Below, one piece after another: positions 460 through 32,963 of a stretch of 64,000 nt of DNA. A program made the translations under genes and the position numbers. The notes under the pieces were generated by a model. The model made no database searches. It was not told the origin of the DNA and saw nothing but the letters and a program-made list of their open reading frames with translations. This DNA is from Nanobdellota archaeon (GTDB taxonomy: Archaea > Nanobdellota > Nanobdellia > SCGC-AAA011-G17 > UBA489), in NCBI GenBank assembly GCA_030699455.1, contig JAUYMN010000008.1, positions 6,271-70,270 of the forward strand. Direction: 5' to 3'. Position 1 is the first letter of the stretch; each line of letters starts with the position of its first letter.

Positions 460-780
460 ATGGGTCTGTTTAAATATTTGGAGCTCAATGACGGGATGCG
501 CATATTTGGAGCCGACTTAGACGCCATCATTATAGCAAGGCATATTAGTGGCAGAGATCACAATCACAGAGAAGCTGTTTTTGAGATTGTCGGATTGGAT
601 GAAATGGATAGGCTGTATCTGAGCTATAAGGATAAACTCTTCCGATTAATTCCTGAGCGTAGCATTTCAATTGGAATAAGGGATAATGATTGCATGACCA
701 ATCCACCAAAAAGAGTTGTTGTTCCTATGCACTTTGTTGCACCAAGAAGTTACAGTCTTAATTGTCGAAGGTATCACTAA
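460..780 (+). CDS. hypothetical protein
   Basis: 106-aa ORF with no competing ORF; no motif recognised. Confidence 0.4.
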   Translation: MGLFKYLELNDGMRIFGADLDAIIIARHISGRDHNHREAVFEIVGLDEMDRLYLSYKDKLFRLIPERSISIGIRDNDCMTNPPKRVVVPMHFVAPRSYSLNCRRYH

Positions 781-782
781 TC

Positions 783-1433
783 TCACCATCGTTCAACATG
801 AACATTTTCTTTAGGCACATTAAGTTCTTCTAGGTGTGAAACTACTGATTTTACAAATTCAGGCAGACCACAAATATAAAAATCTGAATTCAGTTTTATA
901 TTTTTTAAAATCATCCCCTTACTGATTCTCCCTGTCTGACCATTCCATTTTTCTTGGGTAAGAGTTATTATTTTGTTTATGTTTAGTAATTCCAGCTTAT
1001 CCCTAAATAATATATCTTCCTGTTTTTTAACAGAGTAAATAAGTGTGATGTCTTTGTCTTTTAACGACTGCATCATCGTCATTAGGGGCGTTATTCCTGT
1101 GCCTGCGGCTATAAACACCACTGGATTTTGAGTTTCCTTGAGTGTAAAAAGACCAAAAGGACCCTCAATATCTATCGTGTCATTAATATTTTTGCAAAAG
1201 AGGAAACATGACATTTTACCATTTGGCACTTCATTTAATGTTATTGTAATTTCTTCTGTTGGCTGTTTAAACCAGTTGGATATAGAATATGCTCTTCTTA
1301 TAACAACTCCATCTTTTTTAGAAATTACTGTTATAAATTGTCCAGGTTTATAGGTAATTGATTTGTCTAGCTTTAATCTGAATGTTTTTGTGTATGGTGT
1401 TTCATTAATAATTTTGGTGATTCTAGCTTTCAT
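783..1433 (-). CDS. FAD/NAD(P)-binding oxidoreductase, ferredoxin-NADP reductase-like
   Basis: RAYSIS (RxYS FAD motif) and AAGTGITP (NAD(P) motif). Start moved to MKARITK at 1433 so it abuts the NAC stop rather than overlapping it. Confidence 0.7.
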   Translation of the reverse strand: MKARITKIINETPYTKTFRLKLDKSITYKPGQFITVISKKDGVVIRRAYSISNWFKQPTEEITITLNEVPNGKMSCFLFCKNINDTIDIEGPFGLFTLKETQNPVVFIAAGTGITPLMTMMQSLKDKDITLIYSVKKQEDILFRDKLELLNINKIITLTQEKWNGQTGRISKGMILKNIKLNSDFYICGLPEFVKSVVSHLEELNVPKENVHVERW

Positions 1434-1434
1434 T

Positions 1435-1767
1435 TTATTCCTGGAGCGATAAAATTGCTTCTGCCAAATCACCATTATATTTTTCTAATGCTTCTCTTGC
1501 TTTTTGTTCAGAAACATTTGCTTGTGTAGATACAGTCTTTACATCTTCTTCAGAAATCTTTGTTTGTGAAGATTCTTCTGAAATATCTCCAGTTATCTGA
1601 AAACTTTCCTGACCCATTGCATTTACTTTTACAACATTTGGATTGGATATAACTATGTTCTTATCAGGACATTTTATTACTACTTCTTCTGCTTCAATTT
1701 CATCTTGTTTTATACCCATTCTTTTCATTGCTTTGGCAATATCCTTTGGGTTCATTCCTGGAATCAT
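1435..1767 (-). CDS. nac: nascent polypeptide-associated complex protein (archaeal NAC)
   Basis: 110 aa with an NAC domain followed by a UBA-like C-terminus (AREALEKYNGDLAEAILSL). Confidence 0.85.
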   Translation of the reverse strand: MIPGMNPKDIAKAMKRMGIKQDEIEAEEVVIKCPDKNIVISNPNVVKVNAMGQESFQITGDISEESSQTKISEEDVKTVSTQANVSEQKAREALEKYNGDLAEAILSLQE

Positions 1768-1798
1768 AAGAAGGTCATAAAAAGATGATTAATAAATG

Positions 1799-2014
1799 TT
1801 ATTGTTTTTTAGTAGCATATGGTGCCTTGTAATCACACGGTGTTTCTGCTGTGTATTTTGGTTTTTCCTTGTATGTTACTGCATCGGTAGTTATATTAAT
1901 TGCCGCGCTAATTGCAAGCTCTTCCAGCCCCATGCACGAAGGAAATGCCAGCAATGATGCTAATCCACCAGCCTGCAATGTTTTTTTCATTGTTTTTTTC
2001 ATTCTTGCCAACAT
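1799..2014 (-). CDS. small secreted or lipobox-like hypothetical protein
   Basis: Basic N-terminus, hydrophobic stretch, then Cys (LLAFPSC). Confidence 0.35.
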   Translation of the reverse strand: MLARMKKTMKKTLQAGGLASLLAFPSCMGLEELAISAAINITTDAVTYKEKPKYTAETPCDYKAPYATKKQ

Positions 2015-2091
2015 ATATACTGTAGTATATAAATTATAAACCTTTCTGTTTTATGCCTTTAAATTAAGAAATATTTATTTTTGGTGAGCTG

Positions 2092-2802
2092 TTAAGTTAG
2101 CGTCTGGTATAACGTCAGGGCTATTTTTTCAGGAGAAACAATTTTCGGTCTTTTGCCTTGTTTAATCTCTTCTTCATAAAAATCAATTCGTTCTTCAATC
2201 ATTGGAGTTCTTGTAAGGTTTGGTGAAACAACTTTAATCTCAATTTCTCTTGATTTCCAGTAATCTGTTTTTTCTTGGACATATTTCTCTAACAATCCTT
2301 TTGATAAACAATAATCTTCTAAAAATGGGTGATGTTTTCCTGCTAAAACTGAACCAGTTAAAACAATCTTTCCTTTTATTCCATCATTATGCATTTTCTC
2401 TCCAATTCTTTCTATAAGAAACACAGGACAATAATAATTTACTTTCATTGTTGCTTCTTTTTCTTCTTCTGTTAGACCTTTTTTGTAAACTCTTAATCCA
2501 GCATTGTATACAAAAACCTCAGGCGTTCCGAATTCTTTTAGTATTGATTCTAAACTTTTCCAATACAACTCATAGTCTAAAGAATTAAATATTAAACAAT
2601 CAATTTCAAAACTAGGGTTTTCCGATTTGATACTTCTGACTAGTCTTCTTGCACCTTCTTGGCTTTTGTAATAAGTAAACAAAACTGAGAAGTCCTTTTG
2701 TTTTGCTAATCTTTCAACAAGACAAGTCCCAATACCTTTAATTGAGGGGTTTTTATGTGAATAACTTCCCGCACCAATTACTAAAACTCTTTTGTTTTCC
2801 AT
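2092..2802 (-). CDS. short-chain dehydrogenase/reductase family protein
   Basis: N-terminal glycine-rich Rossmann motif (VIGAGS) and YxxxK (YCLSK). Last gene of a 3-gene operon. Confidence 0.75.
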   Translation of the reverse strand: MENKRVLVIGAGSYSHKNPSIKGIGTCLVERLAKQKDFSVLFTYYKSQEGARRLVRSIKSENPSFEIDCLIFNSLDYELYWKSLESILKEFGTPEVFVYNAGLRVYKKGLTEEEKEATMKVNYYCPVFLIERIGEKMHNDGIKGKIVLTGSVLAGKHHPFLEDYCLSKGLLEKYVQEKTDYWKSREIEIKVVSPNLTRTPMIEERIDFYEEEIKQGKRPKIVSPEKIALTLYQTLT

Positions 2803-2810
2803 ATTGTCCC

Positions 2811-3449
2811 CTATAAAGAATTATTTTGAGAATTTGAAACATAATCTGAAAGAGAATTGTGTATTTTAGTTCCGTAGAGCATTTTAAGTTTTTCTAATTG
2901 TTTATCCTGTGGCCAGTAAAGGCTTGCTGTGCAATCGGCTATAATTTCTGTTGGGATTCCAATTCCTCTTTCTTCTGCCCTCATAGCAATAGCATCTATA
3001 CACACATCAGTAAAGAAGCCAACCAAAACAAGACTTGAAGCTGTTCTCTGAACATATTCTCTAAATTGTGTATCAGAAAAAGCGTCTAAACCTCCTTTAG
3101 TAAAAACTGGTTCTTCTCCAATAGGTTTAATTCTATAAAAGTCAGTGCTATTAGTTCCATCTTTCAAAAACTCTTGTTCATACATTTCCTTATATCTTTC
3201 AAATCTAGATGGAGATAAATATTGGGGATCTCCTACTCCTCTAACATAAGCAATTGGAAAACTTTCTTCTCTAAAATGAGCAATTGCACTTTCAATATTA
3301 TCCACAACCTTATCTATACTTTTGACAGATAATTTACCATCTCCAAAAAAACCTTCAGGATTACAGGTTAATTTGTTCATTGCGAAAAAACCATCTGGAT
3401 GACAAAATTCATTTTGAACATCAACTACAAGAATGGTTTTTTGTTTCAT
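2811..3449 (-). CDS. isochorismatase-family cysteine hydrolase
   Basis: ILVVDVQNEF at the N-terminus and FFTDVCIDA with a candidate catalytic Cys. Confidence 0.8.
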   Translation of the reverse strand: MKQKTILVVDVQNEFCHPDGFFAMNKLTCNPEGFFGDGKLSVKSIDKVVDNIESAIAHFREESFPIAYVRGVGDPQYLSPSRFERYKEMYEQEFLKDGTNSTDFYRIKPIGEEPVFTKGGLDAFSDTQFREYVQRTASSLVLVGFFTDVCIDAIAMRAEERGIGIPTEIIADCTASLYWPQDKQLEKLKMLYGTKIHNSLSDYVSNSQNNSL

Positions 3450-4393
3450 TTTCTTCTCTCCTCTACAAATTCCTTTAAAGAATCAACTTTAAACTGCTCA
3501 CCCATCCAAGTAGAATAAAGATTGCCATTTGGCATTATTACTAAATAAGGCAATTCTTCTGCCTTTTCCCTTCCTATCTCTAATTGAGAAGTATAAAAAG
3601 GAAAACCTGTTTTTGTTTCAAAAGCAAGTTCATTTTTTTCCCTACCTTGAAAATTGGCTCTCTGTCCAGTCTGAATTGCTCCGCTTTCTCTTAATCTTTC
3701 TATAACTGGTTTTAATGGAACAAAGTTAAAATCTATATATTCCAGATGACCTCTTATCGCTTCATTATTGGAATCAACATTATAAACTCTAAATAATTCT
3801 CTTAAATATACGTCCTTTGCCCCACACTCTTGAGCAAAATCAAGGTATCTTAAAACATCATCTGTAGTTTCAAGTCCACCTTTTTGCAAGGTTGCACAAA
3901 GTCTTAATGGCATACCTATATCAGACAGATGCTTACCAATAACGCGCGGATTTCCTGTATCTATTCCAAAAATTCTATTATTTTTTTCAGAATCATAATG
4001 ATGTGTACTTAAGTTGACATAATGCAAGCCACTTTGTTTTAATTTTTGGGCTAGTGTTTCCCCATCAGATTCTTTTAACAATCTAGAACCATTAGTATAC
4101 ATGGCTATCAAATCCCAATCAGGATATTTTGATAACTCTTCTAATGTAGAAGTTACTCTGCTCAGCCTAAGAGTAGGCTCTCCGCCAGTGATTATAACTT
4201 TTCTTCCGCCCAAATCATGGTATTCACTAATATAATCAGCAACCCCTCTAGTAAAAGGATCTTGCTCTCCTGTAGGCATTTTCCATGTAATTTCTTGAAT
4301 GCACATTTGGCATCTCGCATTACACTCCGAATTTACCATTACGTCTATTTGCTCTGGCACGGTTGATTTCTTCTCTTCCATGTTGTATCTCAT
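3446..4393 (-). CDS. radical SAM protein
   Basis: CNARCQMC (CxxxCxxC) and GGEPTL. ATGA overlap with the downstream hydrolase gene. Confidence 0.85.
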   Translation of the reverse strand: MRYNMEEKKSTVPEQIDVMVNSECNARCQMCIQEITWKMPTGEQDPFTRGVADYISEYHDLGGRKVIITGGEPTLRLSRVTSTLEELSKYPDWDLIAMYTNGSRLLKESDGETLAQKLKQSGLHYVNLSTHHYDSEKNNRIFGIDTGNPRVIGKHLSDIGMPLRLCATLQKGGLETTDDVLRYLDFAQECGAKDVYLRELFRVYNVDSNNEAIRGHLEYIDFNFVPLKPVIERLRESGAIQTGQRANFQGREKNELAFETKTGFPFYTSQLEIGREKAEELPYLVIMPNGNLYSTWMGEQFKVDSLKEFVEERRK

Positions 4394-4459
4394 TAGTAGT
4401 TATTATCCTAAGTATAATATAAATACTTCCCCCCTTATTGTGGGTGGTAAATAAGAAGT

Positions 4460-4468
4460 TTTATAAAG
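4460..4468 (+). promoter_or_regulatory. TATA box (TTTATAAAG) for the TrmB-like gene
   Basis: TTTATAAAG centred about 26 nt upstream of the ATG at 4490. The same 9-mer recurs upstream of cassette genes. Confidence 0.5.
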
Positions 4469-4489
4469 TTTAGAAATATTTGGTAATGT

Positions 4490-5233
4490 ATGGACACGGA
4501 AACACTAGAAAAAATTGGTTTGACTAAAAATGAGAGTATTGTATACCTAACTTTAGTTAAATCTGGAACAATAAAAACAGCAGAGATTCTCAAGAAATCG
4601 GGACTAAACTCAGGGAGAATTTATGACACCTTGGAATCGTTGAAGCATAAGGGATTAATCTCAGAATCTAATATCAATGGCGTAAAGCACTTTACTGCTT
4701 CGCCACCAAATCAATTAAAGAATTATTTTCAACAAAGATTAAACCAACTAAAACAAGAAGAACCTATAATTGAGAAAGCCATACCTCAATTAAACCTTAT
4801 CAGAAATACATCAATTGAAAGTTCAAGAGCTACAATTTACACAGGGCTAAGAGGATTAAAAACCGCTGTTGATGAAGCATTTGAAAAGGTAGGGAAAGAT
4901 GAAGAAATTTTAGCGATGGGCGTTACCTCATTAAAAGATGAAAAGATAAACCAATTTTGGGTAAATTGGTCACCAAAAAGAATAAACAAAAAACTTGTTG
5001 CAAAGCATTTGTTTTCTGAAAAAAGTGAATTCTATGACGAATTTAAGAAAATGAAATATACAGAAGCAAAATTTTTGGAAGGTATTACTCCTGTAACAGT
5101 TGATATATTTGGAACTAAAACAATTTTAATTATGAATTACAAAGAGCCAATTTCTTGCATTTTGATTCAGGACGAAAATACTGTTCAATCTTTTAGGCAA
5201 TTTTTCTATCAGTTATGGAAAATTGCAAAATAA
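4490..5233 (+). CDS. TrmB-family transcriptional regulator (paralog 1 of 3)
   Basis: N-terminal wHTH LEKIGLTKNESIVYLTLVKSG...GRIYDTLESLKHKGLI. C-terminal domain shared with ORFs 20854 and 22440. Confidence 0.8.
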   Translation: MDTETLEKIGLTKNESIVYLTLVKSGTIKTAEILKKSGLNSGRIYDTLESLKHKGLISESNINGVKHFTASPPNQLKNYFQQRLNQLKQEEPIIEKAIPQLNLIRNTSIESSRATIYTGLRGLKTAVDEAFEKVGKDEEILAMGVTSLKDEKINQFWVNWSPKRINKKLVAKHLFSEKSEFYDEFKKMKYTEAKFLEGITPVTVDIFGTKTILIMNYKEPISCILIQDENTVQSFRQFFYQLWKIAK

Positions 5234-5323
5234 ATTTCTTGCGTAGCAAGACTATCTGTCCTAAAGGAACGCGGGCAACTTCTCCTATCAAGGGCGGGTG
5301 GTTGGGGGACTGAAGGTACTTAC

Positions 5324-5386
5324 AATTACGCTTAATTGTTGTTATACACCCTTCGAAGAGGGTCGAAGCGACCAACGAGAGTGGAG
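5324..5386 (+). repeat. junction-core repeat, variant type (AATTACGCYTAA..TT-GTTATAC)
   Basis: aattacgcttaattgttGTTATACaccc is nearly identical to 22233-22262. Followed by gaagcgacc, an iteron-like sequence. Confidence 0.6.
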
Positions 5387-5404
5387 AAGTTTGGGGCAGA
5401 GATA

Positions 5405-5413
5405 TTTATAAAG
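5405..5413 (+). promoter_or_regulatory. TATA box (TTTATAAAG)
   Basis: About 27 nt upstream of the ATG at 5436, immediately after the left arm of the inverted repeat at 5390-5399. Confidence 0.45.
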
Positions 5414-5435
5414 CCTATTTATATTAATCTAATCT

Positions 5436-5564
5436 ATGAACAAAAAAGGTGAAACGTGGAAAATGATTTTAATTGTGATTATCTTTCTAATAATTTTAAT
5501 ATGGATGCTACTTACTGGTTTCTTTAGCGATCCACTTGGGTGGTTTAGGAATTTAGCACAATAA
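5436..5564 (+). CDS. small membrane protein (42 aa)
   Basis: MNKKGETWKMILIVIIFLIILIWMLLTGFF... has one TM helix. It has its own TATA box and is bracketed by the 10-bp inverted repeat 5390-5399/5565-5574. Confidence 0.35.
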   Translation: MNKKGETWKMILIVIIFLIILIWMLLTGFFSDPLGWFRNLAQ

Positions 5565-5573
5565 CTGCCCCAA

Positions 5574-5672
5574 ATTGCACATAAGCCCTGTTAAACTCTC
5601 CCGTTAGGGATTGAATTTTAGTGCAATGTTCCGTAGCGAAGCGGAGGAAAAATTCAAAGTAAAAAAATCGGC
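5574..5672 (+). repeat. junction-core repeat with conserved hairpin
   Basis: attgcacataagccctGTTAAACtctcccgttaggga, then stem ttgaatttt (5611-5619) / aaaattcaa (5649-5657). The loop begins agtgcaa, as in copy 30615-30722. Confidence 0.65.
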
Positions 5673-5723
5673 GTATCAAGGGCGTAACCCCATTGGTTAA
5701 AAGAATATTGGGTTTGGGTTATA

Positions 5724-5732
5724 TATATAAAG
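5724..5732 (+). promoter_or_regulatory. TATA box (TATATAAAG)
   Basis: About 26 nt upstream of the ATG at 5754; overlaps a GTTATAT motif at 5718-5724. Confidence 0.45.
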
Positions 5733-5753
5733 AATCAATTAAACCTCTAAAAT

Positions 5754-6278
5754 ATGTATACAGAACAAGAACTAAGAGTATTGAATGACTGTGGTAAAGA
5801 ACAGACTAAGATTCAAACATACTTAGATTCTATTCCATTTGATGGAAGAGTATATGATACTGGAGAATATGAAGCTAGATCATTTAGAAAAACTGTTAAA
5901 GATGGGCAAGGATTATGTCTATGTGCTGCATTAACCGCTGCCCACATCTTAGAGTATAATGGACAAGAGCCTTTATTACTTGATATTTGGAGTAGGCCTC
6001 TTGAGCATACAGTTGCGATTTATCAAAATGGAAAGGTTGGTTCTTTGGGGAAAAGTAGACAAGATGGCGCCGGAGGACAACCTTCAACTTTTGATTCTGT
6101 GGAAGAAGTAGCTCAATATTATGCTAATTTTTTTAGAGGTATAGGTTGGGAAGTTGAAGCTTTCGGAGTAATTGATTTATCAAAAATTGATGATATTGAT
6201 TGGAGATTTGAATTAAGAAATTTGGATGAATTGGGAATTTGTCAAAGAATAAATAAATTTCCACATTACAAAATATAA
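5754..6278 (+). CDS. hypothetical protein, possible Cys/His hydrolase fold
   Basis: 174 aa with GQGLCLCAALTAAHILE and a downstream EHTVAIY, a weak transglutaminase/papain-like pattern. Bracketed by nested inverted repeats. Confidence 0.5.
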   Translation: MYTEQELRVLNDCGKEQTKIQTYLDSIPFDGRVYDTGEYEARSFRKTVKDGQGLCLCAALTAAHILEYNGQEPLLLDIWSRPLEHTVAIYQNGKVGSLGKSRQDGAGGQPSTFDSVEEVAQYYANFFRGIGWEVEAFGVIDLSKIDDIDWRFELRNLDELGICQRINKFPHYKI

Positions 6279-6506
6279 TCCAAACCCTTTCTATATTTAG
6301 CCGATTTTTTTATTGAGTTTAATCCTTTTTATGAAAATAACTTAATAATTTGGGGTATTATTGTCTGAAATCATGAAATATGTCATAAACAGTTTTTTTG
6401 TATTCTTTGATTAGTAGTATTTATGCATTACTTATCTAGCTAACAAATCTTAGAAAGGCTTAAATATAAGATATACAGTATATATTCTATATTAATGGGG
6501 GTTAAT

Positions 6507-6638
6507 ATGTTTGAAGCTAGTTGTAATGGATGCGAAGCGGTTTATAGTATTGAGGACAGCAGTATGCCTCAGTCTTTTAAGTGCTTATGTGGTTCAGAAA
6601 AGTTCAGTGTCAAAGAAAATACATTAGTTGTTGCTTAA
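6507..6638 (+). CDS. small zinc-ribbon protein (43 aa)
   Basis: CNGC...CLC cysteine pairs. Below the ORF-track size cutoff. Confidence 0.3.
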   Translation: MFEASCNGCEAVYSIEDSSMPQSFKCLCGSEKFSVKENTLVVA

Positions 6639-6644
6639 ATCTTG

Positions 6645-7475
6645 TTATATTATTAGTATAATCAGATATGCTAGTAGGCACCCCGCCGTTATAAATGGCA
6701 TCGCCGGATAAAACTTATTCTTTTTACCGATATACATAAGATAAAATAATGCGCCTGCTGTGAAGAATGGAATTAAATATGCTAAATTTCCGTAGGTCTT
6801 CATTACCACCCCTGCAAATATTAATGGAAGCCCAATATCTCCACCCCCTAAAATTGCAAACTTGTTTTTTGAATATGGAATCATAATTCCAGGAAAAATA
6901 TTCAGTTTTGTGTGTGACTTTGCCATTTTTACCATATGTTTTGTTTTGTTGACAGCAATATAATCATATATTGAAATTATTATTAAAAAAATTGTAATGC
7001 TAGCCAAATTCATGATTGGAACAAATACTGCAGCAAGCCCGCCATAAATAAATAATTCGCTTATGTTTTGTGTTACTACATTGTTTTTGAATATTTTTGC
7101 ATATGATAATACTATTGATAAGATAATTGCTAGTTGACTTGATAAAAATGCTGCAAATGATATTAATAAACAGAAAACGACTGATAAAAAGAACCAAGCT
7201 TTCCATAACCATTGCACATTGAATTTTATTATTAATAAAATAAAAAAAGTAACTAACAATACCATAATCAACATTGGGATGTATGAAGTACCTTCTTCAA
7301 GATCTGGTCTTTCTATATCATATGGGAGGTCATTGTATTCTATTTCTTTTACTTCCTTACCATCTATTGTTTTTGTTTTTTCAATTGAATAAGAATCAAC
7401 TATAAATAATCCAATAAACTGTGATAAGATAAAAATTGTCAATAAAATTGCAGTAATCTTTGCTGAGTGTTTCAT
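6645..7475 (-). CDS. presenilin/signal-peptide-peptidase-like intramembrane aspartyl protease
   Basis: Polytopic membrane protein with YD (SIYDYIAV) and GxGD-like (LGGGDIGLP) motifs, as in the A22 family. Confidence 0.65.
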   Translation of the reverse strand: MKHSAKITAILLTIFILSQFIGLFIVDSYSIEKTKTIDGKEVKEIEYNDLPYDIERPDLEEGTSYIPMLIMVLLVTFFILLIIKFNVQWLWKAWFFLSVVFCLLISFAAFLSSQLAIILSIVLSYAKIFKNNVVTQNISELFIYGGLAAVFVPIMNLASITIFLIIISIYDYIAVNKTKHMVKMAKSHTKLNIFPGIMIPYSKNKFAILGGGDIGLPLIFAGVVMKTYGNLAYLIPFFTAGALFYLMYIGKKNKFYPAMPFITAGCLLAYLIILII

Positions 7476-7659: not shown

Positions 7660-10600
7660 ATGACTGCCCAAGACAGAAGAATCGCCTACATGGATAAAGC
7701 ACACGACAAAAAGGAGATAGATAGAGTTCTAAATCCATTTGTTAAAAAATGGTTTTTTTCAAAATTTAAGGATTTTTCATTGCCACAGACTTATGCAGTT
7801 AAAGAAATTCACGACAGAAATAATATATTAGTTTCAGCCCCCACTGGTGGAACCAAGACACTAACTGCTTTCTTAAGCATACTAAATGAGCTTGTTAATC
7901 TCTCAATGTCAAACTCTTTGGAAGATAGGGTTTATGCAGTTTATATTTCTCCATTAAAAGCATTGAACAATGATATTCACAGAAATTTAGAAGAGCCATT
8001 GAATGAGATAAAAGAACTGGCTAGAAAAGAAGGTGTTGATTTGAATATTAGGATTGCAACCAGAACAGGTGATACCACACCTAGTGAAAGGCAAAAGATG
8101 TTAAGGAAGCCACCACATATATTGATTACAACGCCAGAATCGTTAGCCCTCATGCTTGGAAGCCTAAAATTTAAGGAATTAATGTTTGATGTTAACTGGT
8201 GCATAATTGATGAGATTCATGCATTGGCTGACAACAAAAGGGGCGTTCATATGGCTTTAAGCCTTGAAAGGCTGAATGTTCAGTCTCCAAACTTAACAAG
8301 AATTGGATTGAGTGCTACCGTCGAACCAATAGAGGAAGTTGCTAGATTTTTAGTTGGTAGTGGAAGAAACTGCAAAATAGCAAAAGTTGGTTTTGTTAAG
8401 AAGTTTGATCTGAAAGTTCTTAGCCCAATAAAAGATTTCTTTGATGTTACAGCTGAAAAGATGCAAAATAAATTGTATGATTTATTGGATAAACTAATAC
8501 AAGAACATAAGACTACATTAATATTTACCAATACTCGCGCAGGAACTGAAAGAGTGGTTCATCATCTGAAGGAAAGGTATCCATCTAATTATAGTGAGAA
8601 TATTGGCGCACATCATGGAAGTTTAAGCAAGAAATATAGAACAAATATAGAAAAAAGACTGAAAGAAGGTAAACTAAAAACAGTTGTTTGCTCCACAAGT
8701 TTGGAGTTGGGTATAGATATTGGTTATATTGACTTGGTTATTTGTTTGGGCAGTCCAAAGGGTGTTGCAAGGTTTCTTCAGAGATGTTTGCCTTATGAAT
8801 CAAGGGTCTTGCTTGCCGATGGCACTTATAAGGAAATTGGCGAGATTGTTGAAAAAAAGTTAGATGTTGAAATACTTTCATATGATATAAAAAAATGCAG
8901 GTTTGTTAGCAACAAAATTTCAAAATATCACAAAAATAAATCAAAAAATTTTTTAGAAATAAAGTTACATTCCGGGTCTAAAATCAGATGCACAGAGGAG
9001 CACCCCATTTTAACAAGAGATGGTTGGAAAAAATCAAAAAATCTTAAGAAAGGAGAGGATATAGCTGAAATTTTTGATTTTAAATATGATGACACCCCAT
9101 ATATTTACGAATTAATAAACAATAAGGATTTTTATGTGGAAAATAAGGAAGATTTTATTAAAGAATGTGTTGATAAATACATCATAGATAATAAAATTTC
9201 TTATTCTAAATTCGCCAAACTCATGGGGATAAATCAGAATAAATTACAGGATATTATGAGGAAAAAAGGAAGAAGAAAAAGCATTAGGCTTGATTTGTTC
9301 ATAAAAATAATGAATCTTTGCAATGTTCATAAAAATACCTATCATCCCTGCCTTAAGGGATTGAAGAGCCAGTCCCATCATAGAAAATTGTTGTCTTTAA
9401 AACCGGATAAAGCGCTAATGTGGCTGGCAGGCATAGTCGCCTCAGATGGGTGCATTACCAAACACAAAAAAACAGGAGAATACAAAATAAAGATTGGAAA
9501 CAAAGATTTGAATATATTAAAAAAATGTCAGTCTATTTTTAATAAGTATGGATTTTATCAAAAAATCAATACAAGAAAAAGAGATGGGATTATGTCTATT
9601 GAATGCGGATCTAAAATTTTATCCCAGATATTTATTTCTTTTGGCATAAAAACAAAAAATAAATCAATCGATTTGGAAGTTTCTAATGTTTTGTATAAGA
9701 TGCCAAAAAATCTTGTTATACCATTTATTGAAGGAGTTTTAGAGGGAGATGGCAATGTCTCACAGGATAGAATAAGAATTTTTTCTGCTAGTAGCAAGTT
9801 TATTTCAGGTTTGCATAACCTCCTTAACAGGCATGGAGTTCATAATTATTTTTGTGAGCAGGAGGCAAAAGTATCAAAAATTGTTCCAAAAATTAATTTT
9901 AAAAATATATATTGTCTTTATGTTTCAAGAAAAAGGCACCTGAGAAAATTCCTAAAATATTGTATTTTTAATGAAAAAAAAGTTAAATCTTTAAGAAGCT
10001 CTGTCGATTACCATTATAAATCAGATAAGGATATTGAAAAAAATATTCATTGGACAAAAATAAAGTCAATTAATTATGCCAAACACAATGGATACGCATA
10101 TAACTTAACTTTGGAAAATGAGCCCAACGATTATTTTGTTGAGAGTATCTTAACCCATAACTGTGGTAGATCGGGACACAAAATGCATGAAACAGTTAAA
10201 GGTAGATTAGTTGTTATGGACAGGGATGATTTGGTTGAGTGCAGTGTTTTATTAAAAAATGCAATGGATAAAAAAATTGACAGAATTGATATCCCAATGA
10301 ACTGTTTAGATGTTTTGGCTCAACAGATACATGGCATGGCCTGTACCGAAGTATGGGACAAGTGGAAGATGTATGAGACTATAAAAAAAAGTTATTGCTA
10401 TAGCAGTTTAACCATAAGTGATTTTGAAGAGATTCTTGATTATCTTGCCGGCAGTTTTGCAAGGCTTGAAGAAAGATATGTCTATGCAAAAATATGGTAT
10501 GATCCGGAAACAAATCAGATTGGAAAGAAAGGCAGGATGGGAAGGGTAATCCATATGACAAATATAGGAACTATTCCTGACACTACAAATGTCAAAGTTA

Positions 10601-20275: not shown

Positions 20276-20625
20276 GTTAGGAGTGAATAAGCCACCTTCT
20301 GTTGGTCTTCTTTTCACGAAGATAAGAGTAGACCATTCCAACATTCAACTTAGCGTCTTAATGACTTGCACCAACCAGGGCTCGTTGTTTCATCGTTTCC
20401 TTTGCAAACGCTCGACTGGTTATCTTATTGTTTTCACAAACAATGTCAGGTATCATTACATACCCATGGCTTTTAATCCATGCAATCTCTTTGCTTAACA
20501 AACAAAGGCCGTGTTGTTTCTGGACGGTTGCCATCCATTTCTGGATCTTCTCAAAGAGAAGTGGTTTTTAATGGTGGGCGGACTTTCCTCAGTGTAAACA
20601 CCGATAGTTGGATGACACTCCTAAC
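20276..20625 (-). ncRNA. rnpB: RNase P RNA
   Basis: CR-I GAGGAAAGTCCGCCC and CR-V ACAGAAGGTGGCTTA. P4 pairing AAGUCCGCC/GGUGGCUU has the bulged U. P1 is a perfect 10 bp, GTTAGGAGTG/CACTCCTAAC. TTTTTAAA lies about 27 nt upstream. Confidence 0.8.
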
Positions 20626-20733: not shown

Positions 20734-20832
20734 AATTGAATATAATTTCTGTTATGCTCTCCGAACGAAGTGAGAACCTGCAAGGCGTGGCAAAATCTCT
20801 TCGAGATTTTGCGTTCAGAAGGTCGCTCGGTG
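20734..20832 (+). repeat. junction-core repeat, full unit (core + hairpin + right arm)
   Basis: aattgaatataatttctGTTATGCtctccgaacgaagtgag, then a 10-bp stem gcaaaatctc/gagattttgc (20790-20812), then right arm gttcagaaggtcgctcgg. Confidence 0.7.
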
Positions 20833-22147: not shown

Positions 22148-22190
22148 AGATAAATTTTTATTTTTTTATTTTTTAACGCGCCGTCCACGT

Positions 22191-22207
22191 GGGGGGGGGG
22201 GGGGGGG
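22191..22207 (+). repeat. G17 homopolymer
   Basis: 17 consecutive G in an AT-rich genome, directly after the right inverted-repeat arm 22175-22188. Confidence 0.9.
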
Positions 22208-22232
22208 TTGGTAGGGAGAAGAGTGACCTTCT

Positions 22233-22378
22233 GAATTACGCCTAACCCTTGTTATACAAGGGTGAGGAGCGAAGCGACGAAAGCGTAGCGTCCCCAAGTG
22301 AGCGAAGCGAACGCAGCGTAAGGCACAGGGACACGTTCCATCAAGTGAGCACAGCGAACCATCCAGAACAAGAATCAA
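22233..22378 (+). repeat. junction-core repeat (variant) plus GC-rich iteron block
   Basis: gaattacgcctaacccttGTTATACaagggt places GTTATAC in the loop of a 6-bp stem. Two 17-mers follow: aagtgagcgaagcgaac (22296-22312) and aagtgagcacagcgaac (22343-22359). Confidence 0.65.
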
Positions 22379-22442
22379 GGGGACACTCTCTTGATGGTGC
22401 TTACACACTTGTAACTTTTTATTGAGAAAACGGGGGCAACTA
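22379..22442 (+). repeat. left arm of 64-bp perfect inverted repeat
   Basis: Exact reverse complement of 24939-25002. Includes the TAG stop of the TrmB gene. Confidence 0.95.
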
Positions 22443-25218: not shown

Positions 25219-25605
25219 ATGAAAATGAATAAAACTTTAACTAGCATCGTTTTGGCAGGAGCTTTAGCTCTTAGTGGCTGTAGTGGAAAAGTCGACGATT
25301 CTAGATATGATTTCAAGGGAAAACTTGGAGATGAACAGGTAGAATTTATACGACAAGGCAATTTTTTGGTCTCCTCTGTAGATGATGGGTTATATTTAAC
25401 AGTTACAAAAGCAGATGGAAAAACTATAACTTATATCGACAGAGGAAATGATTTGAAACTAGATGAAGTAATAATCGGATACGAAGTTTATATAAATGAT
25501 GCTGTTGGACAAAACGCATTAGAATTGGCACAACAACAATTTGATGGTTATTTGACAAAAATTCTTGAATATAAACAGCAAAAAGCTGTTGATGCAATCA
25601 AGTAA
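25219..25605 (+). CDS. lipobox lipoprotein, hypothetical
   Basis: MKMNKTLTSIVLAGALALSGC has a signal peptide and lipobox. Confidence 0.6.
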   Translation: MKMNKTLTSIVLAGALALSGCSGKVDDSRYDFKGKLGDEQVEFIRQGNFLVSSVDDGLYLTVTKADGKTITYIDRGNDLKLDEVIIGYEVYINDAVGQNALELAQQQFDGYLTKILEYKQQKAVDAIK

Positions 25606-25763
25606 ATCTTTCGTTCTATAATTTTTATTTTTCAACAATTTCATTAAAATTTTGTTAGGCAAAGTTACGAAGTAATTTTGTGAAAGTTTTCTGTTATGAT
25701 TTTAACGAAGATAACAACATTAGAATTTTTGGTTTTAACCTCTGTGAGGCGAGCCCCGAATTG
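25606..25763 (+). repeat. cassette 3' flank repeat B, copy 1
   Basis: Starts immediately after the stop codon and is near-identical to 31127-31283. ATCTTTCGTT and TATTTTTCAACAA are inverted copies of elements in repeat A. Contains a degenerate core at 25693. Confidence 0.85.
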
Positions 25764-30156: not shown

Positions 30157-30235
30157 ATTCAATATAATGCCTGTTATGTTCTCCGAACGAAGTGAGGACA
30201 AGCGAACGAAGTGAGTGAAGAGTTCAAAAAAGACT
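30157..30235 (+). repeat. junction-core repeat with duplicated iteron
   Basis: attcaatataatgcctGTTATGTtctccgaacgaagtgag. cgaacgaagtgag occurs twice (30184-30196, 30203-30215). Then the left inverted-repeat arm ttcaaaaaagact (30223-30235). Confidence 0.65.
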
Positions 30236-30814: not shown

Positions 30815-31126
30815 ATGAAACTATATCAAAAAATTGCAACATATACATTTATTGGTGCTGCAAGTTTAGGATTATTTGGTTGTGATAAAAAAGATTCACA
30901 ACGAGCAACTGAACAACCATTACCAGCTGAAATGAGAACATATGAAGTTAGCCCATATGTATTTGGTAAATCTAAAATTAATTATGACCATTTACCAAAT
31001 CTAGGATGGTCGGACATGATTGGGGTAACTTGCGGAGATTTAGATGGTGATGGAGATTTAGAAGTGATTGTTGCAACAAAAGATGGATTAACAATTTACG
31101 AAAACAGAACAGAACAAAAAAGATAA
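30815..31126 (+). CDS. lipobox lipoprotein with FG-GAP-like repeat
   Basis: IGAASLGLFGC signal and lipobox-like Cys, plus CGDLDGDGDLEVIVATKDG. Confidence 0.6.
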   Translation: MKLYQKIATYTFIGAASLGLFGCDKKDSQRATEQPLPAEMRTYEVSPYVFGKSKINYDHLPNLGWSDMIGVTCGDLDGDGDLEVIVATKDGLTIYENRTEQKR

Positions 31127-31283
31127 ATTCTTTCGTTCTATAATTTTTATTTTTCAACAATTTCTTTAAATTTTTGTTAGACAAAGTTACGAAGTAATTT
31201 TGTGAGTTTTCTTTTATGATTTTAACGAAGATAACAACATTAGAATTTTTGGTTTTAACCTCTGTGAGGTGAGCCCCGAATTG
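31127..31283 (+). repeat. cassette 3' flank repeat B, copy 2
   Basis: Partner of 25606-25763. Similarity ends at gagccccgaattg, the last recognisable array sequence. Confidence 0.85.
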
Positions 31284-31478
31284 TGTTGAACAATATATAT
31301 GCGAAGAAGCACGAATTCCTATATTTTAGACGTTATGAAGGCATTATTTGGAAGATTGAGTTAGAAAAACTGTTTTCTTTTATGTGTAGTAAAAACAACT
31401 TATTTTTGACTTTTAACCGCATTTTCTTCGATTTTTTTGAATTAAGTTTTTTTAAGAGTTTATAGTAACTGGTTTTAA

Positions 31479-32184
31479 TGGCTTTGGATGTGCTTTATAA
31501 CATGAAAAGAGAGTTGTTTAGGAGGAAGCTGTCTCCAAGAACTGTTAAAACATACCTGCTGTATGTTAGATTATTTCTTCGAGCAAATAAAGACATCAAG
31601 AAACTCGCGAATCTGCTTTAGGCTTCTTCGCAGTATTTACTACAATTCTTGATTAAATCTAACCATCAATTCTCACTTAAGTCTTTTTTATCAACCGCCA
31701 TCATAACTTTCATAAAATCATTAGGAACCAGAAGTTTATCAAACATAGATGACGTTAACTTTACAGCTGGTGAAAAGGCTTAAATAATTTTGCGGGATGG
31801 ATTGAGTACACTGAAGCGCTACAATAATGGTCTACTCAATTTTAATCTTTATGGGAGAAGAAATTCAGAATCAATACACTAGTGGGGTATGAACTTAAAA
31901 TTATTGCTAAAGGCAATGCGCCTGGAATTTGACAGGTTAATTCTACAACATATGCTCCTGACGAAATTGCAGTTTCTGCCATGAAGTATGTTTAAGATGC
32001 TATTGAAAATGATGGAGCATTAATGAGGCAGTCTGATAGAATTACTACAATAGACAGGCCTATGATTAAAATTGTTTGCTCTGATAGTTACACATTAGTG
32101 CACCCAGCAACTATTGAAGATATGTTAAAGTACAGAAGAGGGCATGGGACAATGGCAAGAAAGCTGGCTCCATCAAGACCATAA
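31479..32184 (+). pseudogene. tyrosine recombinase/integrase, heavily decayed
   Basis: N-terminal SAM-like domain signature KLSPRTVKTYLLYVRLFL, then an in-frame TAG at 31620-31622. The frame continues (FLIKSNHQFSLKSFLSTAIITFIKSLG) to a TAA at 31782. Downstream fragments in shifted frames resemble catalytic-domain blocks (LLNFNLYGRRNSES; LKIIAKGNAPG; RRGHGTMA). No ORF of 60 aa or more across 31.47-32.19 kb. Confidence 0.6.
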
Positions 32185-32189
32185 CAGGC

Positions 32190-32963
32190 TTAAACAAATT
32201 CTATGAATAACAGGAGATACATAATTGCTATGCCTAATAAAAATATTGACAATTCTGATAATGATTGTGTAATGCCTTTGTCTTTATGCAGATGTATCTG
32301 CGGTATTAAATCAGATGCAGCTATGTAAATAAATCCTCCAGATGTTATTGGTATAAGATAATTCGGCAGTGATGATAAATTTGAGCTTAATAACAAAGTT
32401 ATGACTGCTCCTAAAATTGCGGTCAATGCTGTTATAAAATTAAGAAATACTGCTCTTGTTTTTTTAAAGCCTGCATGCAATAATACTCCAAAATCTCCAA
32501 TTTCCTGCGGTATTTCGTGCAATATGACTGCTATTGTTGTTGCAATTCCAAGAGGAACGCTTACTATGAAACTTCCTGCAATCAATATTCCATCAATAAA
32601 ATTGTGCAATGAATCTCCAACAAGGTTCATTATGGCGTATGAAGGTGTTTGTTTTTTGTGATGGTGCAAGTGACAATGCCCCCAATGAACAAATTTTTCT
32701 AATATGAAAAATATTATGATCCCCAATAAAATAAATAATGAAATATTTAGTGTAAATCCTGATTCTGCTGCTTCAGGGATTAAGTGTATGAATGCATCTC
32801 CAAGCATAACTCCTGCTGAAAGACTTACTAATAAAATTATTGTCTTATCTAGATGATTTTTTTTGAATGAAATGCTTGCAAGACCAACAAGGGAAATTAA
32901 GCTTACTATAATCACGCTTAGTAAGGTATACCCCCAAATGTTCACCTCTTGAATACCAAACAT
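32190..32963 (-). CDS. ZIP-family metal transporter
   Basis: HNFIDG, HEIPQEIGDFG, a His-rich loop HCHLHHHK, and multiple TMs. Confidence 0.85.
   Translation of the reverse strand: MFGIQEVNIWGYTLLSVIIVSLISLVGLASISFKKNHLDKTIILLVSLSAGVMLGDAFIHLIPEAAESGFTLNISLFILLGIIIFFILEKFVHWGHCHLHHHKKQTPSYAIMNLVGDSLHNFIDGILIAGSFIVSVPLGIATTIAVILHEIPQEIGDFGVLLHAGFKKTRAVFLNFITALTAILGAVITLLLSSNLSSLPNYLIPITSGGFIYIAASDLIPQIHLHKDKGITQSLSELSIFLLGIAIMYLLLFIEFV

What the first reader, a model, noticed from the sequence alone, without database searches (positions are those of the whole stretch)
31479..32184. Decayed tyrosine recombinase exactly at the end of the repeat array
The first 47 codons give a recognisable integrase N-terminal SAM-like domain (RRKLSPRTVKTYLLYVRLFL). 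An in-frame TAG follows at 31620. The same frame then continues with FLIKSNHQFSLKSFLSTAIITFIKSLG to a TAA at 31782.

Further downstream, only short fragments in different frames resemble catalytic-domain blocks:
- LLNFNLYGRRNSES, compared with LLY.TGLR.SE
- LKIIAKGNAPG, compared with GKG.K.R
- RRGHGTMA, compared with LGH.s..tT

The gene points away from the array with about 195 bp between them. This matches the intI/attI/cassette layout. An inactive recombinase would make this a fossil (CALIN-like) array.
Basis: partly seen in the sequence, partly recalled or inferred. Interest (0 to 1): 0.6.

Follow-up and report, generated by a model that had tools for sequence, protein, structure and literature searches.

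The report
Truncated Xer-like recombinase stub at array end
Only the promoter and first 39 codons of a Xer-like recombinase gene survive at the head of a gene-cassette array in this tiny archaeon; the rest of the gene is missing rather than decayed, so the stub itself is an ordinary gene remnant, but it identifies which recombinase family built the array.

Summary
The N-terminal resemblance is real. Codons 1-39 (31478-31594) are 95% identical to the start of intact 266-304 aa tyrosine recombinases of Woesearchaeota/Nanoarchaeota. The 190 bp upstream is also conserved: 91.6% DNA identity to one such locus.

All homology, DNA and protein, stops abruptly at 31595. The TAG at 31619-31621, the continuing frame and the three "catalytic" fragments lie in unrelated DNA. 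A family profile finds nothing beyond position 42 in any of the six frames.

The DNA after the break is a patchwork:
- a cassette-end-like module
- an internally deleted IS6-like element on the minus strand
- an unrelated pseudo-ORF

So this is a 5' stub, not a full-length decayed gene.

Intact relatives lack the IntI-specific insertion. They form an accessory Xer-like clade, separate from the vertically inherited XerA. They carry a conserved 11-6-11 site about 180-205 nt upstream. In at least one other genome they sit at the head of a co-oriented array of dif-like sites.

The integron-like layout is therefore supported, but as a Xer/dif analogue. "Fossil" is not established: contig C28 of the same genome carries an intact paralogue with the same kind of sites.

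The parts
31280..31307 (+). Terminal recombination-type site S1 (attI-like): ATTGTGTTGAA-CAATAT-ATATGCGAAGA, with 11-6-11 architecture. The shared cassette module ends inside its left arm at 31283.
   Evidence: The motif ATATATGCGAAGAAG is found once in the 770-kb genome without mismatch. It lies at the same distance (-177 to -185 from the start codon) in L004, L007-9 and L042/43, with variants in L040, L005 and C28. Window-L004 homology starts at 31289, at the arm/spacer boundary.
31289..31477 (+). Conserved upstream (promoter/leader) region of the recombinase gene.
   Evidence: It is part of the 308-nt block 31289-31595, which is 91.6% identical to L004 140-446, the locus of the intact P0001 gene.
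31478..31594 (+). Codons 1-39 of a Xer-like tyrosine recombinase (start of the SAM-like N-terminal domain). This is the only surviving coding part.
   Evidence: 95% identity to P0001 aa 1-39, E=5.6e-13 against 5.8e9 proteins. tblastn E=3e-17. Family HMM positions 1-42, 56 bits.
31595..31596 (.). Truncation breakpoint. All DNA and protein homology to intact recombinase loci ends here.
   Evidence: Alignments to L004, L005/6 and L007/8/9 all end at or before 31595, whereas L004 and L007 stay alike beyond it.
31596..31647 (.). Cassette-end-like module. It contains at 31622-31636 an inverted copy of the S1 right arm (GCTTCTTCGCA). The TAG at 31619-31621 that closes the 47-aa ORF lies here.
   Evidence: 31586-31625 is 87.5% identical to G056:C63 486-525, directly after the stop of a 160-aa gene. 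The 11-mer match to the reverse complement of S1 was read from the sequence.
31648..31683 (-). Last 12 codons (with an internal TGA) of an IS6-like (DDE_Tnp_IS240) transposase gene.
   Evidence: tblastn of the L011 transposase aa 277-288 ELGENRWLDLIK against DLSEN*WLDLIK. DNA 80.6% over 36 nt. Pfam of the L011 protein.
31684..31768 (-). First 10 codons of the AbrB/MazE-like gene of the same IS-like element (31713-31684), plus its upstream region and element end. It is fused directly to the transposase tail, which makes this an internally deleted IS remnant.
   Evidence: 31683-31738 is 93% identical to G053:C47 (E=1.9e-17), with copies in G022, G024, G060 and G018. 31747-31767 is 100% identical over 21 nt to the element end.
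31861..32181 (+). Unrelated pseudo-ORF (one TGA, one TAA). It is weakly like an Ig-type repeat of giant surface proteins.
   Evidence: HMMER against 1.84e9 representatives gives only self plus three repetitive giants. The scores are summed over 5-7 identical repeats and a single repeat is only 29 bits. No recombinase similarity.
32171..32197 (-). Degenerate dif-like site overlapping the stop codon of the ZIP transporter gene, inverted relative to the array sites. It is the right edge of the island.
   Evidence: Inverted repeat I15. GCCTGTTATG is shared with the site at 30157. G003 has a site at the same place.
32190..32963 (-). ZIP-family metal transporter gene, the first housekeeping gene after the island.
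   Evidence: ORF. 66-72% identical orthologues in seven of the eight same-genus genomes (46% in G004). ZIP lies within about 1 kb of the RNase P RNA gene in the three of them examined (G002, G003, G005).

Best explanation
The feature is the 5' stub of a Xer-like tyrosine recombinase gene. The gene's own upstream site S1 (31280-31307), its about 190-bp promoter/leader and its first 39 codons (31478-31594) are intact and nearly identical to live genes in related archaea. Everything from codon 40 onward, including the whole catalytic domain, has been removed and replaced by unrelated mobile-DNA debris.

The parent gene belongs to an accessory clade of Xer-like recombinases, distinct from the vertically inherited XerA. 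Members of this clade carry an 11-6-11 dif-like site about 180-205 nt upstream. In other genomes they sit at the head of co-oriented arrays of dif-like sites that separate small gene cassettes.

Shown: the identity of the stub, the breakpoint, the absence of the catalytic part, the nature of the neighbouring debris, the clade, the conserved site, and the recurrence of the layout.

Inferred: this recombinase once inserted and excised cassettes at S1. It was lost through a rearrangement in a recombination and IS hot spot. The array may still be served in trans by the intact paralogue on contig C28.
For: -: codons 1-39 are 95% identical to intact 275-aa P0001 (E=5.6e-13; 3e-17). All 35 hits carry PF13495+PF00589.
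- 308 nt (31289-31595) are 91.6% identical to the P0001 locus. The alignments to L004, L005/6 and L007-9 all end at or before 31595, while the intact loci remain alike beyond it.
- no catalytic-domain similarity in any frame.
- the minus strand of 31648-31768 is an internally deleted IS6-like element (AbrB-like codons 1-10 fused to transposase codons 277-288).
- the 31861-32181 pseudo-ORF is unrelated to recombinases.
- relatives are Xer-like, below the XerA and IntI cut-offs, and lack the IntI insertion.
- a 100/100 split separates the P0001/C28 clade from the one-per-genome XerA clade.
- the S1-type site is conserved upstream of the gene in 6-7 loci.
- L042 has 8 co-oriented dif-like sites upstream of an intact gene.
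- C28 of the same genome has an intact paralogue with a site and junction unit upstream.
- in same-genus G002 the ZIP stop abuts the rnpB promoter, so the whole region 20.66-32.19 kb is an inserted island.
Against:
- No independent assembly carrying the junction was found, so a chimeric join in this 28-contig MAG is not excluded.
- The event that removed the 3' part cannot be reconstructed. Simple inversion models and an IS-terminus junction do not fit.
- Recombinase activity on these sites, cassette mobility and trans-action by the C28 paralogue are untested inferences.
- L007-9 (AR3-like) has the S1 site and one dif-like site but no obvious long array, so the array association is not universal.
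Confidence: 0.8

Rival explanations
1. Assembly artefact. The real genome has an intact recombinase gene here, and the contig is a chimeric join at 31595/31596 between strains or loci.
For: - The genome is a MAG of 28 contigs, 82.7% complete.
- Recombinase genes of this family often sit at contig ends in other assemblies. Same-genus contigs break next to ZIP/rnpB.
- Reads could not be examined.
Against: - Both outer flanks of the island (rnpB and ZIP) are true neighbours in sister genomes.
- No contig of the assembly holds codons 40-275 of a P0001-type gene.
- The join is not at a sequence repeated in the assembly.
- The DNA right of the join is itself a patchwork of truncated elements, as expected of real decay.
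Confidence: 0.1
2. One reading: a full-length recombinase gene decayed in place by a nonsense mutation (TAG) and several frameshifts, with catalytic blocks still faintly visible.
For: - The frame stays open for 53 more codons after the TAG.
- tblastn with the C14 XerA extends at 30% identity through the TAG, E=3e-4 in a 1.1-kb database.
Against: - DNA identity drops from about 92-96% to nothing at 31595. In-place decay cannot erase the better conserved catalytic domain while leaving the N-terminus at 95%.
- The HMM finds nothing beyond position 42.
- The same DNA is explained on the other strand by IS6-like element pieces.
Confidence: 0.03
3. The stub is an int(N) half of an SSV-type 'suicidal' integrase, split by integration through an att site inside its own gene. 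The int(C) half would lie at the other end of an integrated element.
For: - Splitting of the integrase gene on integration is well known in archaea (PMC7253208, PMC8371274).
- 3' fragments of the same family occur in other genomes: G032:C5 with 89% identity to aa 224-270, and G001:C31.
Against: - The family is Xer-like, not SSV-type.
- Intact copies have their site upstream of the gene, not inside it.
- No int(C) exists anywhere in the assembly.
- There is no tRNA or att-like repeat at the break.
- The fragments in other genomes start at different residues.
Confidence: 0.03
4. The 47-aa ORF is kept as a functional small protein, for example a site-binding regulator made from the first helices of the SAM-like domain.
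For: - The promoter region and 39 codons are well preserved relative to L004. There are 5 nt changes in 117 coding nt against about 11% divergence upstream.
Against: - 39 residues are less than half of the four-helix SAM-like domain.
- No identical or similar short ORF is on record.
- The preservation is as well explained by a recent truncation.
Confidence: 0.03

Closest known systems
Integrons and CALINs (IntI, attI, attC cassette arrays), including the archaeal integrons of Ghaly et al. 2022 (PMC9668308)
   Same: - The recombinase gene sits at one end of an array of small, mostly single-gene cassettes and is transcribed away from it.
- A conserved site lies between gene and array.
- Homology between loci starts at that site, as at attI.
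- Arrays without a working local recombinase are common and can be served in trans (PMC9668308).
   Different: - The recombinase family lacks the IntI-specific additional domain and scores below the IntI models.
- The array sites are 28-nt 11-6-11 dif-like sites, not shown to be folded attC hairpins.
- The gene here is truncated, not merely absent.
Archaeal XerA/dif chromosome-dimer resolution (Cortez et al. 2010, PMC2958812) and single-recombinase Xer systems with dif next to the gene (XerS/difSL, XerH/difH; PMC5357621)
   Same: - Best structural and profile relative: P. abyssi XerA 4a8e, E=8e-35, one continuous alignment.
- The sites have two 11-bp arms and a 6-bp spacer, as described for archaeal dif.
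- The site lies close to the recombinase gene. That this also holds for XerS/XerH is my own knowledge and was not checked in the paper.
   Different: - The parent clade is separate from the one-per-genome XerA clade. P0001 is below the XerA equivalog cut-off: 193.6 against 220.
- There are many sites in an array with cassettes between them rather than a single dif.
pdif modules of Acinetobacter plasmids and IMEX elements (mobile DNA exploiting Xer at dif)
   Same: Discrete gene modules are bounded by Xer-type sites and accumulate at a Xer site. This is the closest mechanistic analogy. It rests on established knowledge and was not tested here.
   Different: - Those use the host XerC/XerD and have no dedicated adjacent recombinase gene.
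- pdif sites alternate in orientation, whereas here the sites are co-oriented.
IS6/IS26-family insertion sequences
   Same: The debris next to the break contains both ends of a gene pair (AbrB/MazE-like gene plus DDE_Tnp_IS240 transposase) that occurs in several related genomes.
   Different: - Only 22 codons and the upstream end survive.
- The break in the recombinase gene is not at the element's terminus, so a simple IS insertion or IS26-type adjacent deletion does not explain it.

Membership tests
Tyrosine recombinase (Phage_integrase, PF00589) | C-terminal catalytic domain with the R-H-R-Y residues | tested here: not met
   No PF00589 match in the window region in a six-frame search at E<=10. 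A family HMM finds nothing beyond position 42 in six frames. The domain is absent from this locus.
Tyrosine recombinase (Phage_integrase, PF00589) | N-terminal SAM-like core-binding domain (PF13495/PF02899) | tested here: inconclusive
   Only the first 39-42 of about 85 positions are present. Pfam PF13495 scores 19.5 bits, below the cut-off of 27. Homology of that part to full-length members is unambiguous.
Integron integrase IntI | IntI-specific additional domain around patch III (Messier & Roy 2001, cited in PMC9668308) | tested here: not met
   This cannot be read in the stub. In the intact relative P0001, residues 180-197 (18 aa) face VchIntI4 residues 182-245 (64 aa), so about 46 residues are missing. 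Relatives are 266-304 aa.
Integron integrase IntI | Score above the curated IntI model cut-offs (TIGR02249, NF011946) | tested here: not met
   P0001 scores 193.3 against 265, and 125 against 435. P0008 gives similar values.
Integron / CALIN (system) | Cassettes bounded by attC sites that act as folded single-stranded hairpins (R''-L''...L'-R') | not tested
   The sites were read as 11-6-11 dif-like cores with 5-6 of 11 complementary arm positions. No attC model was available and no folding test of the bottom strand was made here.
Integron / CALIN (system) | Recombinase gene next to an attI-type site at the head of the array, transcribed away from the cassettes | tested here: met
   Window: S1 at 31280-31307 and ATG at 31478. 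The same arrangement occurs in L042 with 8 upstream sites and an intact gene.
Archaeal XerA (NF040815 recomb_XerA_Arch) | Equivalog score of at least 220 bits, and membership of the vertically inherited one-per-genome clade | tested here: not met
   P0001 scores 193.6 and P0008 198.3, both below 220. Own C14 scores 259.9 and own C28 223.3. In the tree, P0001-type and C28 form clade A, separated 100/100 from the C14/XerA clade that tracks taxonomy.
SSV-type (suicidal) integrase | att site inside the gene, with int(N) and int(C) halves at the two ends of an integrated element | tested here: not met
   No int(C) in the assembly. The cognate-type site is upstream of the gene in intact loci. There is no tRNA at the break. 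The assembly is only 82.7% complete, so absence is not absolute.
IS6 family element (for 31648-31768) | DDE_Tnp_IS240 transposase between terminal inverted repeats | tested here: inconclusive
   The reference element in G053 (L011) has the Pfam domain at E=1.1e-11. The window keeps only transposase codons 277-288 and one end. Terminal repeats and target duplications were not established.

The most novel reading that the evidence does not exclude
The stub is the dead copy of the dedicated recombinase of a Xer/dif-based gene-capture platform of DPANN archaea. In this reading, an accessory Xer-like clade (P0001/C28 type) with its own upstream attI-like site assembles co-oriented arrays of dif-like-bounded cassettes. 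That would be an integron analogue built without IntI or attC. Arrays that lose their local gene, as here, would stay active through a paralogue elsewhere in the genome. I found no description of this in the papers searched. Other notes of this scan report the same layout in other genomes, but those are unverified leads.
Probability: 0.45. Interest if true: 0.7.

Novelty: new variant of a known kind. Interest (0 to 1): 0.4.

Why it matters
Taken alone, a truncated recombinase gene is commonplace.

Its value is as a label. Because 39 codons and the upstream site survive at 92-95% identity to live genes, the stub ties this cassette array to one defined recombinase clade. That clade is not IntI and not the housekeeping XerA. 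The stub also ties the array to one defined site type.

This makes the idea of a Xer/dif-based cassette platform in DPANN archaea directly testable. The intact relatives or the C28 paralogue can be expressed and tested on S1 and the array sites.

The result also corrects the picture of a "fossil" array. The genome still holds a live paralogue heading a second array.

Tried and rejected
- **Independent assemblies of the junction.** A 27-mer across 31595/6 is absent from genome contigs and metagenome contigs. The own genome may be masked there. Exact look-ups of the 47-aa and 53-aa ORFs found nothing.
- **Catalytic remnants.** Tested with PF00589 six-frame search, tblastn with four relatives at word size 2, and a family HMM with filters off. 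All were negative.
- **P-type ATPase origin of 31861-32181.** There were weak per-genome HMMER hits. They were rejected because BLAST did not reproduce them and the TGES motif is absent.
- **Ig-like repeat origin of the same pseudo-ORF.** Kept only as a weak lead. The library E-value is inflated by 5-7 identical repeats and by my choice of W for TGA.
- **Simple inversion models.** I considered inversion of the array or of 31596-32170 between inverted sites. Both were rejected because neither places codons 40-275 anywhere.
- **IS insertion at the break.** Rejected because the break is not at an element terminus.
- **A dif-like pseudo-site conserved inside intact genes (about codons 80-88) as the break point.** Rejected because it lies about 120 nt past the break.
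- **Stop-codon reassignment.** Rejected because TAA, TGA and TAG all end long ORFs.
- **A long array upstream of the AR3-type gene (L007).** Not found.

Full report
**Setting.** The window is contig C24:6271-70270 of a 770-kb, 28-contig archaeal MAG, 82.7% complete. It has about 33% G+C, an archaeal LSU rRNA and an archaeal RNase P RNA at 20276-20625 on the minus strand. All three stop codons end long ORFs (TAA 144, TGA 61, TAG 51), so no recoding is involved.

**What the sequence shows.** An ATG ORF runs 31478-31621 (47 aa) and ends in TAG. The same frame then stays open to TAA at 31781-31783. The shared cassette module (31126-31283, 94-95% identical to 25604-25763) ends 194 bp before the ATG, and the ORF points away from the array. 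These parts of the observation are correct.

**Is the N-terminus a recombinase?** Pfam alone is marginal: Phage_int_SAM_4 at E=0.0014 and 19.5 bits, against a cut-off of 27.

A search of 5.8 billion proteins is decisive. It returned 35 hits, all 233-304 aa and all with PF13495+PF00589. Where a source gives a name, they are called XerD or tyrosine recombinase of Woesearchaeota/Nanoarchaeota archaea. The best is P0001 (275 aa), at E=5.6e-13 and 95% identity. In nearly every hit the match covers only about 34-44% of the 101-residue read-through, that is, the first 39-40 residues; one hit (P0012) reaches 73% coverage at only 51% identity.

tblastn of P0001 against the whole genome gives three relevant results:
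- the window, for residues 1-39 only (E=3e-17)
- two full-length paralogues on C28 (48% identity) and C14 (37%)
- nothing for residues 40-275 near the window

**The breakpoint.** At the DNA level, the contig that encodes intact P0001 (L004) is 91.6% identical to window 31289-31595 over 308 nt. The loci of P0008 (L007-9) match 31477-31595, and those of P0003 match 31487-31569. In the three-way alignment, the window follows L004 base for base up to ...GCAAATAAAGACA (31595) and then diverges completely, whereas L004 and L007 remain alike beyond that point.

So the gene is cut after codon 39. The TAG lies 25 nt inside foreign DNA and is not a nonsense mutation of the recombinase frame.

**Is a decayed catalytic domain present?** No. 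The evidence:
- The PF00589 six-frame search of the genome at E<=10 finds C14, C28 and a fragment on C4, but not this locus.
- tblastn with own paralogues and closest relatives, at word size 2 without composition correction, gives only E>=0.3 downstream.
- I built a 272-position HMM from 37 full-length relatives and ran it with all filters off on the six frames of 31284-32260, with stops as X. It matches positions 1-42 at 31478-31603 (56 bits). Every other hit scores 0.6 bits or less.

An N-terminus at 95% identity next to a catalytic domain that has vanished cannot be in-place decay, because the catalytic domain is the better conserved part of these proteins.

**What lies after the break.**
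- **31586-31625** is 87.5% identical to a stretch that directly follows the stop of a 160-aa gene in G056:C63. At 31622-31636 there is an inverted copy (GCTTCTTCGCA) of the right arm of the site S1 described below.
- **31648-31768, minus strand**, holds two pieces of one element, fused head to tail. Codons 277-288 of an IS6-like transposase (DLSEN*WLDLIK against ELGENRWLDLIK) lie at 31683-31648. Codons 1-10 of the small AbrB/MazE-like gene that precedes that transposase lie at 31713-31684. Then come its upstream region (93% identity over 56 nt to G053:C47, E=1.9e-17; copies in at least four further genomes) and the element end (21 of 21 nt). This is an internally deleted IS remnant.
- **31861-32181** is a pseudo-ORF with one TGA and one TAA. 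Its only library matches are giant repetitive proteins with Ig-type repeats. The evidence is weak, because the score is a sum over identical repeats. It is in any case not a recombinase.
- **32171-32197, minus strand**, is a degenerate dif-like site that overlaps the stop of the ZIP transporter gene.

**What family was the gene?**
- NCBIfam places P0001 and P0008 closest to archaeal XerA (193.6 and 198.3 bits) but below the 220-bit equivalog cut-off. They are also below the IntI models: TIGR02249 at 193 against 265, and NF011946 at 125 against 435.
- Among solved structures, the best match is P. abyssi XerA (4a8e, E=8e-35, one continuous alignment). V. cholerae IntI4 (2a3v) aligns in two pieces. 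P0001 residues 180-197 face IntI4 residues 182-245, so the IntI-specific insertion of about 46 residues is missing.
- A maximum-likelihood tree of 41 proteins splits 100/100 into two clades. Clade B contains C14 and the one-per-genome copies, which group by taxonomy; this is XerA proper. Clade A contains the P0001 type, own C28 and a patchy set of relatives.

The stub therefore derives from an accessory Xer-like clade. It is neither IntI nor the housekeeping XerA.

**The site and the array.** About 180-205 nt upstream of the start codon, the window carries ATTGTGTTGAA-CAATAT-ATATGCGAAGA (31280-31307, here called S1). The motif ATATATGCGAAGAAG occurs without mismatch only here in the genome. 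It occurs at the same distance in L004 and L007-9. L042/43 carry it with one mismatch. L040, L005 and own C28 carry recognisable variants; the C28 variant is ATTGAATATAA-CCCTTT-TTATGAGAATA.

Homology between the window and L004 begins at 31289, at the left-arm/spacer boundary of S1. To the left the two loci are unrelated. That is the pattern expected if exchange happens at this site.

The array repeats have a core of two 11-nt arms and a 6-nt spacer, for example ATTGAATATAA-TTTCTG-TTAGTTTCTCC. This is the architecture described for archaeal dif (PMC2958812). They lie on the plus strand at 20743, 22243, 25036, 25768, 25849, 26408, 30165 and 30624.

The same layout exists with a live gene. In L042 (GCA_030630885.1), eight co-oriented sites at 663-7231 precede an S1-type site and the intact P0028 gene at 8388-9200. 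There are no such sites on the other strand or downstream. L005, L040 and L007 have one or two such sites upstream.

In this genome, the intact C28 paralogue has a site at about 1109 and a full junction unit at 362-430, and the contig starts there.

**The island.** Seven of the eight same-genus genomes keep ZIP at 66-72% identity.
- In G002 the ZIP stop is followed at once by the TATA box and start of the RNase P RNA gene. This is an empty site.
- In G005 a hicAB-like pair lies between them.
- In G003 a single gene lies between them.

So window positions from about 20.66 to 32.19 kb are an insertion hot spot, and the stub lies at its ZIP-proximal end. This also shows that the two outer flanks of the contig are true neighbours.

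**Mechanism and limits.** The following are shown:
- the stub's identity
- the break
- the missing catalytic part
- the debris
- the clade
- the conserved site
- the recurrent layout

The following are inferred. The clade-A recombinase inserted and excised cassettes at S1. It was destroyed by a rearrangement in a region crowded with recombination sites and an IS. The array may still be served by the C28 paralogue, so "fossil" is unproven.

I could not reconstruct the event that removed the 3' part. Inversion models and an IS-terminus junction do not fit. No independent assembly of the junction was found. A chimeric join therefore keeps about 10% probability.

**Literature.** The archaeal integrons of Ghaly et al. 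have IntIs with the additional domain and folded attCs (PMC9668308). That differs from what is here. Searches for DPANN, tyrosine recombinase and gene cassettes returned only that paper. The review of archaeal tyrosine recombinases does not mention DPANN, and its integron and XerA passages that I read do not describe such arrays. Earlier notes of this scan report the same kind of array, and a site about 200 bp upstream of the recombinase gene, in other genomes. I treated these as leads and re-tested the claims on my own loci.

**Verdict.** The feature is a 5' stub of an accessory Xer-like recombinase gene at the head of a dif-like cassette array. As a gene remnant it is ordinary. As the link between the array and a defined recombinase clade and site, it is useful.

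Noticed in passing
G000 contig C28:1-2107 (outside the window; L002/L019): An intact clade-A recombinase (start about 1295) has a dif-like site at about 1109, one cassette-sized ORF upstream, and a full junction unit (ATTGCACATAA-TCACCG-TTATATTCTCC plus a TTTTTAGTGCAACG hairpin) at 362-430. The contig begins there. This looks like a second array in the same genome, with a live recombinase.
   Followed up: partly
G000 contig C4:28865-29029, with sites at C4:7705 and C4:25789 (outside the window; L003): A second recombinase remnant: only family-HMM positions 97-151 survive, followed by a TGA. It lies about 3 kb from a dif-like site (ATTGAATATAATCGCTGTTATG) on the same contig.
   Followed up: partly
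window 5333-5610: Two further co-oriented dif-like sites lie at 5333 and 5582. The second (ATTGCACATAAGCCCTGTTAAACTCTCCCGTTAGGGATTGAATT) is nearly identical to a junction unit in L042 at 7231. This may be a small separate array.
   Followed up: no
L004 566-593; same position in L007, L040, L042, L043: All intact P0001-type genes contain a dif-like pseudo-site inside the coding region, at codons about 80-88 for ..LHKACYLKI.. (e.g. TACATAA-AGCTTG-CTATCTGAAAA). It may be a by-product of the conserved protein sequence or a built-in weak point. It is not the break point in the window.
   Followed up: partly
G032:C5:99514-99660 (L032) and G001:C31:6800-7000 (L033): 3'-terminal remnants of the same recombinase family occur in other genomes: 89% identity to P0001 aa 224-270 in a different family of the order, and 52% identity to aa 204-272. 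Truncated copies of this family seem frequent, and near-identical pieces occur across families, which suggests horizontal spread.
   Followed up: partly
G053:C47:6980-8205 (L011 about 382-1607): An about 1.2-kb element with a 52-aa AbrB/MazE-like gene followed by a 293-aa zinc-finger plus DDE_Tnp_IS240 transposase. Its possible terminal repeats are GGAGCTGTA.../...TACAGCCC. Its 5' region recurs at 80-94% identity in at least five genomes of the order. No intact copy is present in the window's own assembly.
   Followed up: partly
G002:C3 end (L055) and G003:C14 end (L053): Same-genus contigs end within or just after the RNase P RNA gene next to ZIP. In G002 the ZIP stop codon directly abuts the rnpB TATA box, which gives the empty site of the island.
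   Followed up: yes
window 22166-22408: A run of 17 G at 22191-22207 and an unusually G+C-rich stretch lie inside the island, next to a dif-like site at 22243.
   Followed up: no
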